Of a stretch of DNA of 64,000 nt, positions 30,138 to 34,181 are shown one piece after another. The DNA comes from Chromatiales bacterium. Its GTDB lineage: Bacteria > Pseudomonadota > Gammaproteobacteria > JAHELT01. Each line of letters starts with the position of its first letter. Within the stretch, counting starts at the first letter, position 1. The notes under the pieces were generated by a model that did no database searches, had not been told where the DNA came from, and saw only the letters and a list, made by a program, of their open reading frames with translations. The position numbers and the translations under genes are program-made. Where the stretch lies: positions 36 through 64,035 of the forward strand of contig JAHELT010000007.1 in NCBI GenBank assembly GCA_024644045.1, written 5' to 3'.

Positions 30138-30641
30138 TCACCGGTCGACCCGGTACACGAAATACGCCCAGCCGCGCGCCGCCAACGGCAGGGGCAACTG
30201 CCGCCAGCGGGGCACCTGCATTTCGCGATCGCTCAACACCAGGGCGCCGGCGTCCAGCAGACCGTCAATCAACGGCGCCAGTGCTGCTGCGAGGTGCGCG
30301 TCACCCGCGGAATCGTCGCTCCCCAGGTCCGCATGCACGAGTGCCACCTGCAGCGCGGCGATGCGCGGGCTGGCGAGCTGCTCGCGCAGGTCGCCGAGCC
30401 ATAGGCAGTCGGCGGGCGGAATGCAGTCCGGCGGTGCGTGCACCGCGCGATCGAAAACGTGAATCTCGCGCGCCGGAAACAGCTTGCGCAGATGATCGTA
30501 GGTGCGGCCCTTGCCCAGCCCGAGCTCGAGCAGCACGCCCGGGCGGCCGGCCAGCTCGCGCTGCGCAAACTCCAGGCACGCTTTCTGGGTGGCGAGCCTG
30601 GCGAGCATGCGCTCCAGCCGGCTCTGGCGCCTGTCGCTCAT
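30138..30641 (-). CDS. Small SAM-methyltransferase-like protein, last gene of the degenerate-ABC/cNMP operon
   Basis: ~168 aa from MSDRRQSRL. Gly-rich loop VLLELGLGKGRTYDHL...IHVFDRA resembles a SAM-binding motif I/II. Start ambiguous (30641 or 30662). Confidence 0.35.
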   Translation of the reverse strand: MSDRRQSRLERMLARLATQKACLEFAQRELAGRPGVLLELGLGKGRTYDHLRKLFPAREIHVFDRAVHAPPDCIPPADCLWLGDLREQLASPRIAALQVALVHADLGSDDSAGDAHLAAALAPLIDGLLDAGALVLSDREMQVPRWRQLPLPLAARGWAYFVYRVDR

Positions 30642-30661
30642 CGGGCCCCCGGCCGGCTGCA

Positions 30662-31129
30662 TCACTCCAGCGCGGCTTTCGCCAGCTTCTCCTTGGCGTC
30701 GCGCAGCTTGGCGGTGCTCTCTTCGAGCCGGTTGGCGAGCGTGCGGATGATCTGCACCGCAATGTCGGGCGACCCCTTGACCAGCTGCATGAACACGTCC
30801 TTGCTCACGTTCAGCGCGTGCACCGTGTCCTTGGCGCGCACGGTCGCGGTGCGCGGAGTGTCGCACAGGATCGACATTTCACCGATCACCTCGTTCTTGC
30901 CGCGCGTCGCCACCAGCACGGGGCCGTTTTCCGAATCGACCAGCACCTCCGCCGTACCCCCGGTTATGATGTAGGCGCTGTCGCCGTGCTCGCCTTCGTG
31001 GCAAAGCTCCTCGCCCGCCTGGAATTCCAGCCAGCGGCTGGTGAAAGCCAGCAACTTCAGCTTTGACGGATCGAGATGCGCAAACAGGCCGATGTTGCGC
31101 AGCAGCTTGGCTTCTTCTTCCAGACTCAT
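30662..31129 (-). CDS. Stand-alone cyclic nucleotide-binding (CAP_ED) domain protein
   Basis: 155 aa. cNMP-binding motifs (FQAGEELCHEGEHGDSAYIITGGTAEV...GEMSIL...RTATVRA). No HTH or other output domain. Confidence 0.8.
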   Translation of the reverse strand: MSLEEEAKLLRNIGLFAHLDPSKLKLLAFTSRWLEFQAGEELCHEGEHGDSAYIITGGTAEVLVDSENGPVLVATRGKNEVIGEMSILCDTPRTATVRAKDTVHALNVSKDVFMQLVKGSPDIAVQIIRTLANRLEESTAKLRDAKEKLAKAALE

Positions 31130-31236
31130 GACTCAAACCTCTGCGGAACGCACACCGCCGTCCCGCACCACCGGGGCTGCCAGGCAGCGGGGCCGCTCAT
31201 CCCACTCAGTATCGCAGCGTTTTCCAACACTTCCCC

Positions 31237-33882
31237 TCAGCCGTTGTGCAGCAGCGCCTTGAACGTTCCGTCGGCTTGCTCGAGCTCATCGAACGTGCCC
31301 TGCTCGATGACTCTTCCACTTTCCATCACCAGCGCTCTGTCGAATTCGCGGGCGTACTCCGCACGCCCTGAGACCCAGATCAGACCGCGCCCCTCGCACT
31401 GCTCGCGCACGCCCTTCAGGAGCTGCAGCTCCTTGGCACCGTCCAGCGTACTGGTGGCATCATTGACGATGAGTATGTCCGGCTGTTTAAGCAAGGCGCG
31501 CGCCACGGCCAGCTTCTGGCGCTGCTCCATCGACAGGCGTCCGCCGCCGATGCCGACATCATAGTCCAGCCCGACCCTGACGATGTCGACGCGCAGGCCG
31601 TGCCCGTCAATCACACTGTTTATCACGCTGCTCAGCCGCGCCTGGCCGCGCGCCTGCCCGTAGGCGAGCTTTCCGAAAAGGATGTTGTCCAGCAGCGTCG
31701 ATTCGCCGTTGTATGCATCGGCGTCGAAGAACGCCACCACGTCGCTCAGCTCGGACGGCAGATTAGCGCGAAACGCATCGCGCGCCTTGAGAATCCGCGT
31801 CTGCATTTGCTCGTCGATCAATCCCAGGCGGTGGCGCGCCGGGGCCAGCTTGAATGCCAGGGACAGAAATCGTGCCTGTGTCTCCGCATCCATCGCGCGC
31901 ATGCCCTGGGTCGAGATACGTTTCAGCAGCTGCTGGTACTCCGGCAGATCTTCCGCGCTGATGAACGAGAACTGCTCGAAAAACTCGTGGCCCGGCGGCA
32001 GGTCCGCGAACAGATCGACCATGGTGTCAGCGACCTTGCGGCCCACTTCGAGAAGATCGGTCTGCAATCCCGCCTCGGTCAGGATGTGCAGCATGTATTC
32101 GTGGTTGGCGATCTTCTCCAGATCGAACGTCGCGTCGGTCGGCGTGCCGAACAGCAGGTTCTCGGCGACCGACGCGTTCAGGTTGTAGCGGTTTTCCTCG
32201 AAGGGTTCGACCAGTCCCGACAGATCTTCTTCGCGCAGCCGCTCATGCAACGCGGCGCGCGCCTGCATGACGCGCTGCGAGAATTCCTCGCGCGCCTGCG
32301 GATCGATGGTGCTGTGCAGACCGAGATGGTAGATGTCTTCTTCGAGCCCCACCACACGCATCAGCTCTACGATCCGCAGCTCGAGCTGTTCGCCGTCGTC
32401 GACCCCGGCGCCCGCGTAGTCGACCCAGTCAGCCGTAAAAGCGTGCAGCGAGTTGCCGGTGCGCAGCGCCTCCTCGCGCTCGGCGGTCAGCGCCCGCTTG
32501 AAGCTCTCATCGATGTCGGCGAGGACCCTCGGGAGGTGCTTCAAAGCGTAGTGCATGTTGTCGCGCACGCTGCCGGGAAACAGGTACACGCTCGGGCCGA
32601 CGTAGCCGATACGGCGCCCGACCACCGACTCCGGCAGGTCCGCCGTGTTCTGATCGCCGATCGTGATACGCCCGGCCGTCGGCCGCAGCAGACGGGCGAG
32701 CAGGCGTGCGAACTCGTCGCGGCCGCTGCCGTTCGGCCCGGTGATCAGTACGTGCTCGTTCAGGCGCAGCTGCGCATTGACGCCGTCGACCAGCTTTATC
32801 AGCTGGTCCTCGCTGAAGCTCAGGTTGCTCGCCACCAGGTCGCCTTTCAGGGGTGGCACGGTCTCGGCTTCGTCCGCCACCAGCGCTTCATCCAGCATCT
32901 GCTGGGGCTCGAACTGGTCCAGCACCTGCGCGTACTTGACGCGTACGTCTTCCTTGGTCTCGTAGTACTTCAGCAGCTCTTTCCAGGGGTCGGCGAGATC
33001 CTTGTACGCGGCCAGCACTGCCACCAGCGCGCCCAGCGACAGCTCACCCATGATCACGAAATAGCCGCCCGCCGAGTAAAAGAAGAACGGCGTGATCTGG
33101 GCCAGGAAATTGTTCAGGAACTTGATGAAGAACTTTTTCCGGTAGATATGGTAGCGGATGTGGAAGATGTGCCCGAGGCGCGCGCTGATGTCCGCCCGTT
33201 CGTAGTGGGTGGTGTCGTTGGCGTGAATTTCCGCAATACCCGATACCGAGTCCCCGATCCGTGCGGCGAGCTGCCGCGCCGCGAGCACGCGCTGCTTGGC
33301 CAGCCGGTTCACCCGTCGCTGCAGCTTCGGAATCACGTACATCTGCAGCGGGTACGTGGCCACCGCCGCCGCGCCCAGAAACGGATCCTGGTTAAAAATG
33401 AAAAACAGATAGGTGAGCAGCAGACCACCCTGAAACGCGGGCAGGGAGAACGCCTCGCCGATGAATCCACCCAACGGTTCGGTTTCCGCGGTTATCATGG
33501 GAATGATTTCGCCGGACGACACGCGCTTGAAATGCGGCAACGGGAACCGCAGCAGGCGCGAGTAGAGCTGATAGCGCATGCGCCGCAGCATGCGTTCACC
33601 CAGCACGCCACGGTACACGTTCAGGAAGTACTTGAAGCCGCCATTGATCAACACCAGGAACAGAAACAGGCCGCACAGCGCGAACAGGTAGGTGATCTGG
33701 GTGAACTCGAACCCGAGCACGGCCTGCGGCATGCCCTGGCCGCCGATCGCCTCGTTGATGATGATCTTCGGCACCTCGAGCGAGAAGTACACGAACGGCA
33801 TGGACAGCGCGGTCACCACCAGCAGCACGATCTGCCCCTTCAGGCTGTGCTTCAGGATGTACTTGAACAGTGAGCGTTCCAT
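31237..33882 (-). CDS. ABC-exporter-like TMD-NBD protein with fully degenerate ATPase motifs and ~330-aa insertion in the NBD
   Basis: N-terminal six-helix ABC_membrane-like domain. NBD motifs all substituted: Walker A GPNGSGRDEF (K to R, S/T to D), Q-loop GYVGPSVYLF (Q lost), signature GGGRLSMEQRQKL, Walker B ILIVNDATSTLD (catalytic E to A), H-loop position GLIWVSG (H lost). Alternative GTG start at 33957. Confidence 0.7.
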   Translation of the reverse strand: MERSLFKYILKHSLKGQIVLLVVTALSMPFVYFSLEVPKIIINEAIGGQGMPQAVLGFEFTQITYLFALCGLFLFLVLINGGFKYFLNVYRGVLGERMLRRMRYQLYSRLLRFPLPHFKRVSSGEIIPMITAETEPLGGFIGEAFSLPAFQGGLLLTYLFFIFNQDPFLGAAAVATYPLQMYVIPKLQRRVNRLAKQRVLAARQLAARIGDSVSGIAEIHANDTTHYERADISARLGHIFHIRYHIYRKKFFIKFLNNFLAQITPFFFYSAGGYFVIMGELSLGALVAVLAAYKDLADPWKELLKYYETKEDVRVKYAQVLDQFEPQQMLDEALVADEAETVPPLKGDLVASNLSFSEDQLIKLVDGVNAQLRLNEHVLITGPNGSGRDEFARLLARLLRPTAGRITIGDQNTADLPESVVGRRIGYVGPSVYLFPGSVRDNMHYALKHLPRVLADIDESFKRALTAEREEALRTGNSLHAFTADWVDYAGAGVDDGEQLELRIVELMRVVGLEEDIYHLGLHSTIDPQAREEFSQRVMQARAALHERLREEDLSGLVEPFEENRYNLNASVAENLLFGTPTDATFDLEKIANHEYMLHILTEAGLQTDLLEVGRKVADTMVDLFADLPPGHEFFEQFSFISAEDLPEYQQLLKRISTQGMRAMDAETQARFLSLAFKLAPARHRLGLIDEQMQTRILKARDAFRANLPSELSDVVAFFDADAYNGESTLLDNILFGKLAYGQARGQARLSSVINSVIDGHGLRVDIVRVGLDYDVGIGGGRLSMEQRQKLAVARALLKQPDILIVNDATSTLDGAKELQLLKGVREQCEGRGLIWVSGRAEYAREFDRALVMESGRVIEQGTFDELEQADGTFKALLHNG

Positions 33883-34181
33883 GTTACTGGGCGTGTTGAA
33901 CGGGTGGGGTTTGCTGTTGTTGTTGGTGGTCGCCGGGATCTGACGGGTTGCTCGCACCTATGGTAACTTGCCAACCTGTCCCGTGCACCTGGCGCGCATG
34001 TGTGCCGAAGTACGTGGAGTGCTCGTTTTCAATGGCTCAATCAAGGCGTTACCTGCTCATCCAGGTCGAGCTGCCGGCGGCAGTGCGCGGTGCGAAATCC
34101 CGGCAGCGTGTGCTGAGGGCTCGCCCGTGTGCCTCGGCCGCCTTTCAGGGACCATGCACCCGGGCGCGGTAACGGCACCGC

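What the first reader, a model, noticed from the sequence alone, without database searches (positions are those of the whole stretch)
30138..33957. Catalytically dead ABC-exporter-like protein co-transcribed with a stand-alone cNMP-binding protein
The 880-900-aa TMD-NBD protein keeps the ABC fold but has lost every residue needed for ATP hydrolysis. Walker A reads GPNGSGRDEF, the Q-loop Gln is Gly, the signature is GGGRLSMEQRQKL, Walker B is NDATSTLD with no catalytic Glu, and the H-loop His is Gly. As a homodimer neither ATP site could turn over. The NBD also carries a ~330-aa insertion with repeated ...(D/E)N(I/L)LFG... segments between the Walker A and signature motifs. Immediately downstream on the same strand, with short gaps, are a 155-aa CAP_ED-only cNMP-binding protein lacking an output domain and a small methyltransferase-like protein. 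This suggests a cyclic-nucleotide-gated channel, flippase or signalling module rather than an ATP-driven pump. I do not recognise this as a described family.
Basis: partly seen in the sequence, partly recalled or inferred. Interest (0 to 1): 0.82.

Follow-up and report, generated by a model that had tools for sequence, protein, structure and literature searches.

The report
ABC-pump-shaped membrane protein with dead ATPase, cyclic-nucleotide partner
This gene makes a membrane protein that is built like an ATP-powered bacterial pump, but the parts that burn ATP are broken in the whole family. It sits with, and in relatives is fused to, a small protein that senses cyclic nucleotides. That points to a pump turned into a membrane device switched by a chemical signal rather than powered by ATP, a kind not yet described.

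Summary
Window 31237-33882 (-) encodes an 881-aa type IV ABC exporter-fold protein; its true start is ATG 33882, not the GTG at 33957. It has a degenerate Walker A (GPNGSGRDE), Walker B (ND in place of DE), H-loop (His replaced by Gly) and signature (LSMEQ). A conserved ~335-aa insertion lies in the NBD helical subdomain. Next on the same strand come a 155-aa protein that is only a CNB domain and a small SAM methyltransferase. This is not a decaying pseudogene. The gene is under purifying selection (dN/dS 0.10). It is one member of a large family (at least 581 GTDB species, mostly Rhodospirillales) in which the LSGGQ signature is missing from every member examined and the Walker A Ser/Thr is usually replaced. 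The insertion is a tandem duplication of the NBD helical subdomain. The CNB protein sits next to the ABC gene in 74 of 82 loci and is fused to the ABC C-terminus in one clade. A model predicts that the CNB docks onto the insertion through invariant residues. The module's neighbours include a cluster of four glycosyltransferases and a phosphatase, a membrane class III cyclase, and, in relatives, an Apyc1-like cyclic-nucleotide phosphodiesterase. Best reading: a membrane protein of ABC-exporter fold, gated by a cyclic nucleotide and unable to hydrolyse ATP. Its cargo, or the conduit it opens, is unknown.

The parts
31237..33882 (-).
   Evidence: Pfam ABC_membrane+ABC_tran; AF2 model pLDDT 83 matches MsbA/TmrAB/PCAT1; homologs start at this ATG
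32713..32739 (-). Walker A region GPNGSGRDE (P0002 382-390): Lys->Arg, Ser/Thr->Asp
   Evidence: motif table
31543..32547 (-). Conserved ~335-aa insertion in NBD helical subdomain (P0002 446-780): two extra copies of the helical-subdomain unit, with ENLLFG/DNILFG motifs; predicted CNB docking site (~P0002 620-745)
   Evidence: AF2 of insertion pLDDT 89; VIA-align to NBD helical subdomains Z~6; conservation A2; complex model
31516..31554 (-). Degenerate signature region GIGGGRLSMEQRQK (P0002 777-789), no LSGGQ
31441..31476 (-). Walker B ILIVNDATSTLD (P0002 803-814), catalytic Glu -> Asp
30662..31129 (-). Stand-alone CNB protein (155 aa), canonical cAMP/cGMP-type phosphate-binding cassette GE...RTA
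   Evidence: Pfam PF00027; closest solved PKA/PKG CNBs; PBC conserved in 74 orthologs
30138..30641 (-). Small SAM methyltransferase (Methyltransf_17), start ATG 30641 (or 30662 overlapping CNB stop)
   Evidence: Pfam; ortholog length median 166 aa; conserved downstream in 50/82 loci
34182..35486 (+). GT4/GT-B glycosyltransferase (EpsE-like), divergent from ABC
   Evidence: Pfam/NCBIfam; in 72/82 loci
35261..36583 (+). GT4-conflict family glycosyltransferase (true start probably ~35420)
   Evidence: Pfam PF20706; in 63/82 loci
36559..37167 (+). Histidine phosphatase (CobC-like)
   Evidence: Pfam PF00300, NCBIfam ribazole_cobC; 56/82 loci
37164..37931 (-). Divergent polysaccharide-deacetylase-like protein
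   Evidence: weak Pfam PF01522; in 49/82 loci
37922..39058 (-). GT28-C family glycosyltransferase (MGT/MJ1255-like)
   Evidence: 67/82 loci
39135..40535 (-). GT28-C family glycosyltransferase
   Evidence: 71/82 loci
40632..42020 (+). Membrane-anchored class III nucleotidyl cyclase (about 6 N-terminal TM helices); 49% identical to the cyclase adjacent to a CNB-ABC fusion in another genome; kept at the same place in a same-genus genome
   Evidence: Pfam Guanylate_cyc; closest solved adenylyl cyclases; synteny L091; relation to L088 cyclase; TM scan

Best explanation
The window encodes the receptor-effector core of a dedicated cyclic-nucleotide signalling circuit in the membrane. The effector is an ABC-exporter-fold homodimer whose NBDs have lost what ATP hydrolysis needs: the signature glycines family-wide, and in this lineage also the Walker A Lys/Ser, the Walker B Glu and the H-loop His. 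I infer that it therefore does not pump with ATP. Instead, a cyclic nucleotide (probably cAMP, from the nearby membrane adenylyl-cyclase-like enzyme or the cell's pool) binds the stand-alone CNB protein. The CNB docks onto a duplicated helical-subdomain insertion in the NBD, and this docking, rather than ATP-driven NBD closure, switches the transmembrane domain. In this clade the most likely cargo is a glycoconjugate or glycolipid made by the conserved glycosyltransferase/deacetylase/phosphatase/methyltransferase cluster, moved by signal-gated passive translocation (flipping or channel-like conduction). Shown: degeneracy, family spread, purifying selection, gene linkage, fusion, predicted interface. 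Inferred: no ATPase activity, cNMP gating, and the cargo.
For: Degenerate motifs in the window protein, LSGGQ absent in all 270 relatives examined, Walker A S/T mostly replaced. Purifying selection on every domain: dN/dS 0.05-0.14 vs a same-genus ortholog. At least 581 GTDB species carry family members. CNB gene adjacent, same strand, in 74/82 loci. CNB fused to the ABC C-terminus in a whole clade (ESM Atlas fusion clusters). CNB has a canonical cAMP/cGMP-type pocket conserved across orthologs. Complex model puts the CNB on the insertion: ipSAE 0.62 vs best control 0.00, contacts agree in at least 93% between runs, partner pLDDT 83. The interface uses invariant residues on both sides (CNB K25-F29; ABC H684/L686), with the cNMP pocket left free. 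The insertion is a tandem copy of the NBD helical subdomain, the part that carries the signature and forms the NBD dimer interface. Conserved 9-gene cassette with four glycosyltransferases, deacetylase-like, phosphatase and MTase. Class III cyclases and an Apyc1-like cNMP phosphodiesterase sit next to fused CNB-ABC members. A related membrane cyclase sits at the end of the window cassette and in the same-genus genome.
Against: No activity was measured. ATP binding (not hydrolysis) may persist in the two-thirds of relatives that keep the Walker A Lys. The cargo is pure inference: the glycosyltransferase cluster is missing from the CNB-fused clade, which has different neighbours (sulfatase, cyclase, PDE). 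The window genome has 27 class III cyclase domains, so a cyclase 7 kb away is weak evidence of a dedicated circuit. The complex prediction used one NBD and no membrane, and cannot show binding. No ATP-independent substrate translocation by an ABC-fold protein is known.
Confidence: 0.45

Rival explanations
1. A Pycsar-like anti-phage abortive-infection effector. Infection activates a cyclase; the cyclic nucleotide binds the CNB, which triggers the ABC-fold membrane domain to open a pore and depolarise or kill the cell.
For: The CNB matches Pycsar effector CNB profiles (PycTIR 70 bits). Fused CNB-ABC members sit beside cyclases that hit PycC profiles and beside Apyc1-family (anti-Pycsar) PDE homologs. 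A degenerate ATPase suits an effector that only needs to open. The GT4 family is named 'conflict' in Pfam.
Against: The PycC hits are generic class III cyclase similarity: the window cyclase is closest to solved adenylyl cyclases and only weakly to PycC 7r65. The CNB is closest to PKA/PKG cAMP/cGMP domains, not known to bind cCMP/cUMP. The window context is biosynthetic (glycosyltransferases, phosphatase, MTase), with no defence genes. The cassette is present with conserved synteny in all three same-genus genomes searched, while defence systems usually vary between close relatives. Apyc1-like PDEs also serve as ordinary signal-terminating enzymes.
Confidence: 0.2
2. An ATP-driven exporter/flippase (e.g. 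for a glycolipid made by the GT cluster) that hydrolyses ATP by an unusual catalytic arrangement the motif comparison misses, with the CNB protein acting only as a cAMP-dependent regulator of its rate.
For: Type IV ABC exporter fold and TMD closest to MsbA/PglK-type lipid and glycolipid flippases. Walker A Lys and Walker B Glu are kept in many relatives. The conserved GT cluster is a natural substrate source.
Against: LSGGQ is absent family-wide, and the window protein also lacks the Walker A Lys/Ser, catalytic Glu and H-loop His. No homodimeric ABC exporter with both sites this degenerate is known to hydrolyse ATP (established knowledge of ABC ATPase mechanism: signature glycines contact the gamma-phosphate in the sandwich dimer).
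Confidence: 0.2
3. A membrane-anchored cNMP signalling scaffold or receptor that transports nothing: the degenerate ABC fold holds the CNB at the membrane and passes the signal to another partner (e.g. a glycosyltransferase complex) by protein-protein contacts.
For: Both ATP sites are degenerate. The CNB has no output domain of its own. The TMD could be kept for membrane localisation or complex formation.
Against: The TMD is under the strongest purifying selection of all domains (dN/dS 0.05), and its many invariant charged residues suggest a working conduit rather than a mere anchor. This is not tested.
Confidence: 0.15

Closest known systems
Type IV ABC exporters (MsbA, PglK lipid-linked oligosaccharide flippase, TmrAB, PCAT1)
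   Same: Same architecture and fold: 6-TM ABC_membrane domain fused to an NBD, homodimer. The AF2 model aligns to them. NCBIfam best hits are exporter families.
   Different: Signature LSGGQ absent family-wide; Walker A Ser/Thr replaced; in this lineage also no Walker A Lys, catalytic Glu or H-loop His. ~335-aa duplicated helical subdomain inside the NBD. Paired with or fused to a CNB domain.
CFTR / SUR (ABCC proteins with a degenerate ATP site acting as channel or channel regulator)
   Same: An ABC fold whose ATP site(s) are degenerate, yet kept and used for gating or regulation rather than pumping. The insertion's extra helical units align best to ABCC/CFTR NBD1 helical subdomains.
   Different: Bacterial homodimer with both composite sites degenerate (CFTR/SUR keep one canonical site). 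Gating input proposed to be a cyclic-nucleotide-binding protein, not ATP or phosphorylation. No R domain, no Kir partner.
Pycsar systems (PycC cyclase + CNB-fused effector, TIR or transmembrane)
   Same: A CNB domain controls a membrane effector, and in some relatives a class III cyclase and an Apyc1-family PDE are encoded next to it.
   Different: The effector is a large ABC-exporter-fold protein, not a small 2-TM or TIR domain. The window cyclase is closest to adenylyl cyclases. The CNB resembles cAMP/cGMP binders. The window cassette is biosynthetic, not in a defence island.
NHLM bacteriocin export system (TIGR03796 ABC peptidase/permease/ATPase with TIGR03896 cyc_nuc_ocin CNB protein)
   Same: An ABC exporter paired with a CNB protein: the best NCBIfam hits for both proteins are these two models.
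   Different: Scores far below the curated cut-offs (ABC 184 vs 853; CNB 46 vs 161). No C39 peptidase domain. Those exporters have canonical ATPase motifs. No bacteriocin precursor context was seen.
CNB-gated channels (CNG/HCN, bacterial MloK1)
   Same: A cyclic-nucleotide-binding domain gates a membrane conduit.
   Different: The pore here would be an ABC-exporter TMD, and the CNB acts through an NBD insertion (in trans, or fused in one clade), not through a C-linker to a K+-channel pore.

Membership tests
Type IV ABC exporter (active ATP-driven transporter) | TMD of ABC_membrane fold fused to NBD, homodimer | tested here: met
   Pfam; AF2 model aligns to MsbA/TmrAB/PCAT1
Type IV ABC exporter (active ATP-driven transporter) | Walker A GxxGxGK(S/T) | tested here: not met
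   Window GPNGSGRDE; family mostly GxxGSGKDE, K->R in window clade
Type IV ABC exporter (active ATP-driven transporter) | ABC signature LSGGQ | tested here: not met
   Absent in all 120 close relatives and 150 diverse representatives
Type IV ABC exporter (active ATP-driven transporter) | Walker B hhhhDE with catalytic Glu; H-loop His | tested here: not met
   Window ND and Gly; relatives variable, His kept in 45/119 close and 9/150 diverse
Type IV ABC exporter (active ATP-driven transporter) | ATP hydrolysis coupled to transport | not testable with these tools
   needs purified protein
Pycsar anti-phage system | CNB-containing effector | tested here: met
   CNB protein; PADLOC PycTIR CNB hit 70 bits
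Pycsar anti-phage system | Dedicated PycC cyclase encoded next to the effector | tested here: not met
   Window: cyclase 7 kb away, closest to adenylyl cyclases. Adjacent cyclases only in some relatives
Pycsar anti-phage system | Effector output = TIR NADase or small 2-TM domain | tested here: not met
   Output is an 881-aa ABC-fold protein
Pycsar anti-phage system | cCMP/cUMP specificity | not testable with these tools
   CNB closest to PKA/PKG cAMP/cGMP domains, suggestive only
Pycsar anti-phage system | Anti-phage activity | not testable with these tools
   needs phage challenge assays
NHLM bacteriocin export system | ABC above TIGR03796/TIGR03797 cut-off with C39 peptidase domain | tested here: not met
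   184 bits vs 853 cut-off; no peptidase domain
NHLM bacteriocin export system | CNB protein above TIGR03896 cut-off | tested here: not met
   46 vs 161 bits
MADS defence system (PADLOC mad3/mad8) | Strong match to mad protein models and co-occurring mad genes | tested here: inconclusive
   Only weak partial hits to the NBD region (35.7 and 19.3 bits); other cassette genes have no PADLOC hits
CFTR/SUR-like degenerate-site ABC channel/regulator | One degenerate and one canonical composite ATP site | tested here: not met
   Homodimer; every composite site would lack LSGGQ
CFTR/SUR-like degenerate-site ABC channel/regulator | Channel (conductance) function | not testable with these tools
   needs electrophysiology

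The most novel reading that the evidence does not exclude
A second messenger takes the place of ATP: the family is an ABC-exporter-fold membrane protein in which a cAMP/cGMP-loaded CNB protein, docking on a duplicated NBD helical subdomain, drives the TMD's alternating-access or gating switch. The protein would be a cyclic-nucleotide-gated ABC-fold channel or passive flippase for a glycoconjugate, fed by its own membrane cyclase and, in some lineages, switched off by a dedicated phosphodiesterase.
Probability: 0.3. Interest if true: 0.85.

Novelty: new variant of a known kind. Interest (0 to 1): 0.7.

Why it matters
ABC transporters are taken to be powered by ATP hydrolysis at sites built from the Walker A/B motifs of one NBD and the LSGGQ signature of the other. 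This is a large, widespread bacterial family, under purifying selection, with the type IV exporter fold, in which the signature glycines have been lost in every member examined. It is consistently linked, in trans or by fusion, to a cyclic-nucleotide sensor that is predicted to dock onto a novel duplicated helical subdomain of the NBD. If it works as proposed, it would be a bacterial analogue of how CFTR and SUR turned the ABC fold into a channel or regulator, with the input switched from ATP to a second messenger. It would also be a new kind of cNMP effector, adding to CRP, PKA/PKG, CNG channels and Pycsar effectors, and a testable model for how the ABC switch can be driven without hydrolysis. 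The associated glycosyltransferase cluster suggests a signal-controlled export or flip of a glycoconjugate in Rhodospirillales and relatives.

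Tried and rejected
The ORF is intact, has orthologs in at least 581 genomes, dN/dS is 0.05-0.14 by domain, and the degeneracy is shared family-wide. Alignment error in the motif calls: rejected. Motifs were read from pairwise alignments to 270 relatives, and LSGGQ was searched anywhere in each sequence (0/150). 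Foldseek PDB search of the insertion alone: no match. VIA-align wide search then matched only NBD helical subdomains (Z ~6), which read as a duplication, not a new fold. Literature searches for MADS, GT4-conflict, degenerate ABC with CNB, and cNMP + ABC + anti-phage found no description of this family. The lipocone paper mentions CNB fusions to VanZ, not this system. PADLOC on the cassette's glycosyltransferases, phosphatase and MTase gave no hits; the mad3/mad8 hits on the NBD are weak. The window's cyclase as a dedicated PycC: not supported, as it is closest to adenylyl cyclases and the genome has 27 cyclase domains. The look-up of sequencing runs: no RNA holder listed, so co-transcription could not be checked with reads; the DNA holders are sediment/soil/marine metagenomes. 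The A2 (insertion) homolog search returned mostly fragments of the same family, not the standalone CNB-insertion proteins seen in the ESM Atlas. No phylogenetic outgroup placement of the degeneracy event was possible: the one canonical outgroup was long-branched.

Full report
Observation. The 906-aa ORF at 31237-33957 (-) (P0001) runs from a GTG. Every close homolog starts at the internal ATG 33882, giving an 881-aa protein (P0002). Pfam finds ABC_membrane (72-315) and ABC_tran (391-528). The AF2 model is confident (pLDDT 83, pTM 0.74) and Foldseek matches type IV exporters: MsbA, TmrAB, TM287/288, PCAT1, P-glycoprotein. Walker A is GPNGSGRDE, with no Lys and no Ser/Thr. The signature region is GIGGGRLSMEQRQK, with no LSGGQ. 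Walker B is ILIVNDATSTLD, with Asp in place of the catalytic Glu. The H-loop His position is Gly. Downstream on the same strand, after a 107-bp gap, is a 155-aa protein that is only a CNB domain (Pfam cNMP_binding 35-118) with a canonical cAMP/cGMP phosphate-binding cassette (GE...RTA). Its closest solved relatives are PKG and PKA regulatory CNBs. Next comes a Methyltransf_17 SAM methyltransferase. Its start at ATG 30641 or 30662 overlaps or abuts the CNB stop, so the two are translationally coupled.

Family, not decay. The search for homologous proteins returned thousands of ~880-aa relatives at 50-80% identity. A genome-contig scan with family-specific peptide patterns found relatives in at least 581 GTDB species, mostly Rhodospirillales and other Alphaproteobacteria, some Gammaproteobacteria. 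Motif tables were made for 120 close relatives and 150 diverse 50%-cluster representatives. The LSGGQ signature is absent everywhere: the family motif is LSxxQRQK. The Walker A Ser/Thr is replaced by Asp/Glu/Asn in most members. The Walker A Lys is kept in 99/119 close relatives but replaced by Arg in the window's clade and by other residues in many distant ones. The H-loop His is kept in 45/119 close and 9/150 diverse members. Against a same-genus ortholog, dN/dS is 0.097 overall: TMD 0.05, insertion 0.135, NBD core 0.095. The whole protein, including the degenerate NBD, is therefore under purifying selection. A nuance: the window protein's own Lys/Glu/His triple loss is lineage-specific, while the loss of the signature glycines defines the family. 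By established ABC mechanism (the signature glycines contact the gamma-phosphate across the NBD sandwich dimer), no composite site in this homodimer can be canonical. I infer that the family does not hydrolyse ATP in the usual way. That is not measured, and some members may still bind nucleotide.

The insertion. The ~335-aa insertion sits between the native ENI helix (P0002 437) and the signature helix (777). It folds confidently on its own (pLDDT 89) and is conserved, with invariant residues such as H684, L686, R701 and the DNILFG unit. Foldseek finds nothing in PDB. A VIA-align search of all PDB clusters aligns its first repeat to NBD helical subdomains at Z ~6 (MRP/ABCC, CFTR NBD1, TAP, TmrAB). 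The NBD carries a tandemly duplicated helical subdomain, the lobe that bears the signature and faces the partner NBD. ESM Atlas structural neighbours of this module include our family, an ABC_membrane+CNB+ABC_tran fusion, CNB+NBD-like proteins without TMD, and stand-alone copies. The module thus travels with CNB domains.

The CNB link. The CNB gene is adjacent and co-directional in 74/82 loci. In one large clade the CNB is fused to the ABC C-terminus (1030-1200 aa; P0248, P0255, P0257, P0264, P0268, P0275), twice with an additional degenerate GGDEF domain. A complex model of the CNB alignment with the NBD+insertion alignment scored ipSAE 0.62 against a best control of 0.00. Contacts agreed in at least 93% between runs and partner pLDDT was 83; binding is supported by the model, not shown. 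The CNB N-terminal segment with invariant K25-F29 lies on the insertion around P0002 620-638, 684-687 (invariant H684/L686) and 741-745. The cyclic-nucleotide pocket is left free, which fits allosteric control. No such complex has been solved, so the pass is unlikely to come from memory of a solved structure.

Context. The window's module is part of a conserved 9-gene arrangement, each gene found in 49-72 of 82 loci. One side, reading away from the ABC, carries GT1 (EpsE-like), GT4-conflict, a CobC-like histidine phosphatase, a divergent polysaccharide-deacetylase-like protein and two GT28-family glycosyltransferases. The other side carries ABC, CNB and MTase. In a same-genus genome the synteny extends to a membrane class III cyclase at the far end, followed by HisPhos2, GGT and MFS genes. 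The window's cyclase (40632-42020 +, about 6 TM helices) is closest to solved adenylyl cyclases and 49% identical to the cyclase next to a CNB-ABC fusion elsewhere. In the fused clade the neighbours are class III cyclases (one also hits PADLOC PycC), an Apyc1-like MBL cyclic-nucleotide phosphodiesterase (PF23023), a sulfatase, and in one case a PKD-type ion channel. The window genome itself has 27 class III cyclase domains and no Apyc1. The cyclase link is therefore real in relatives but weak evidence by itself in this genome. PADLOC finds no defence models among the GT-cluster genes.

Mechanism. Best explanation (confidence about 0.45): a dedicated cyclic-nucleotide circuit in the membrane. 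A cyclase (probably adenylyl) makes the signal, and in some lineages a PDE ends it. The CNB protein senses it and, once loaded, docks onto the duplicated helical subdomain of a degenerate ABC-fold homodimer, driving its TMD switch in place of ATP hydrolysis. In the window clade the likely cargo is a glycoconjugate from the GT cluster, moved by signal-gated passive flipping or channel-like conduction. Rivals: a Pycsar-like abortive-infection membrane effector (0.2); an ATP-driven exporter with an unrecognised catalytic arrangement and CNB only as a rate regulator (0.2); a membrane signalling scaffold that transports nothing (0.15). Shown: the degenerate motifs, family size and selection, gene linkage and fusion, the insertion's origin, the predicted interface. 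Inferred: no ATPase, cNMP gating, cargo, and any defence role.

Comparison and novelty. The protein is a member of the ABC exporter superfamily by fold, but fails the defining catalytic-motif tests of active type IV exporters. It shares with CFTR/SUR the use of an ABC fold with degenerate sites for gating or regulation, but here both sites are degenerate and the input is a cNMP sensor. It shares with Pycsar the pairing of a CNB sensor with a membrane effector and a cyclase, but its effector type, cyclase type and context differ. Its best NCBIfam hits (NHLM bacteriocin ABC with the cyc_nuc_ocin CNB protein) are far below cut-off and lack the peptidase domain. No paper found describes it. Rating: a new variant of a known kind, a repurposed ABC exporter and possibly an unnamed family, of moderately high interest.

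Passing notes. The GT4 ORF overlaps GT1 and probably starts about 160 codons later than the listed ORF start. The window contains no tRNAs. The 26945-28870 and 29987-31066 ORFs are high-GC antisense artefacts. The sequence comes from sediment/soil metagenome runs.

Noticed in passing
window 40632-42020 (+): Membrane-anchored class III nucleotidyl cyclase (about 6 TM helices N-terminal), 49% identical to a cyclase adjacent to a CNB-ABC fusion in another genome, and kept at the far end of the cassette in a same-genus genome.
   Followed up: partly
L088 3803-4573, L089 5132-5911: Bacterial homologs of the phage anti-Pycsar nuclease Apyc1 (PF23023, MBL fold) encoded directly upstream of CNB-ABC fusion genes, next to class III cyclases: a possible signal-terminating phosphodiesterase of a dedicated cNMP circuit.
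   Followed up: partly
P0264, P0268 C-termini: Some CNB-fused family members carry a further C-terminal GGDEF-like domain lacking the GG(D/E)EF motif (degenerate).
   Followed up: no
window 37164-37931 (-): Divergent polysaccharide-deacetylase-like protein (weak PF01522) conserved in 49/82 cassette loci.
   Followed up: partly
window 29638-30093 (+), 27994-29943 (-), 25008-27924: A second short histidine phosphatase, gamma-glutamyltranspeptidase and two MFS transporters follow the MTase; conserved in same-genus relatives (L091, L002) but not across the family.
   Followed up: partly
L089 4006-4812: Ion_trans/PKD-type channel gene near a CNB-ABC fusion and Apyc1-like PDE.
   Followed up: no
window 33882 vs 33957: True start of the ABC gene is ATG 33882 (881 aa, as in all homologs); the GTG at 33957 adds 25 codons.
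   Followed up: yes
window 35261-36583 (+): GT4 ORF overlaps GT1 by about 225 bp; its true start is probably near 35420, judged by homolog length.
   Followed up: partly
ESM Atlas clusters: The NBD-insertion fold also occurs in stand-alone proteins (222-346 aa) and in CNB + insertion proteins without a TMD (486-620 aa): a mobile CNB-associated module.
   Followed up: no
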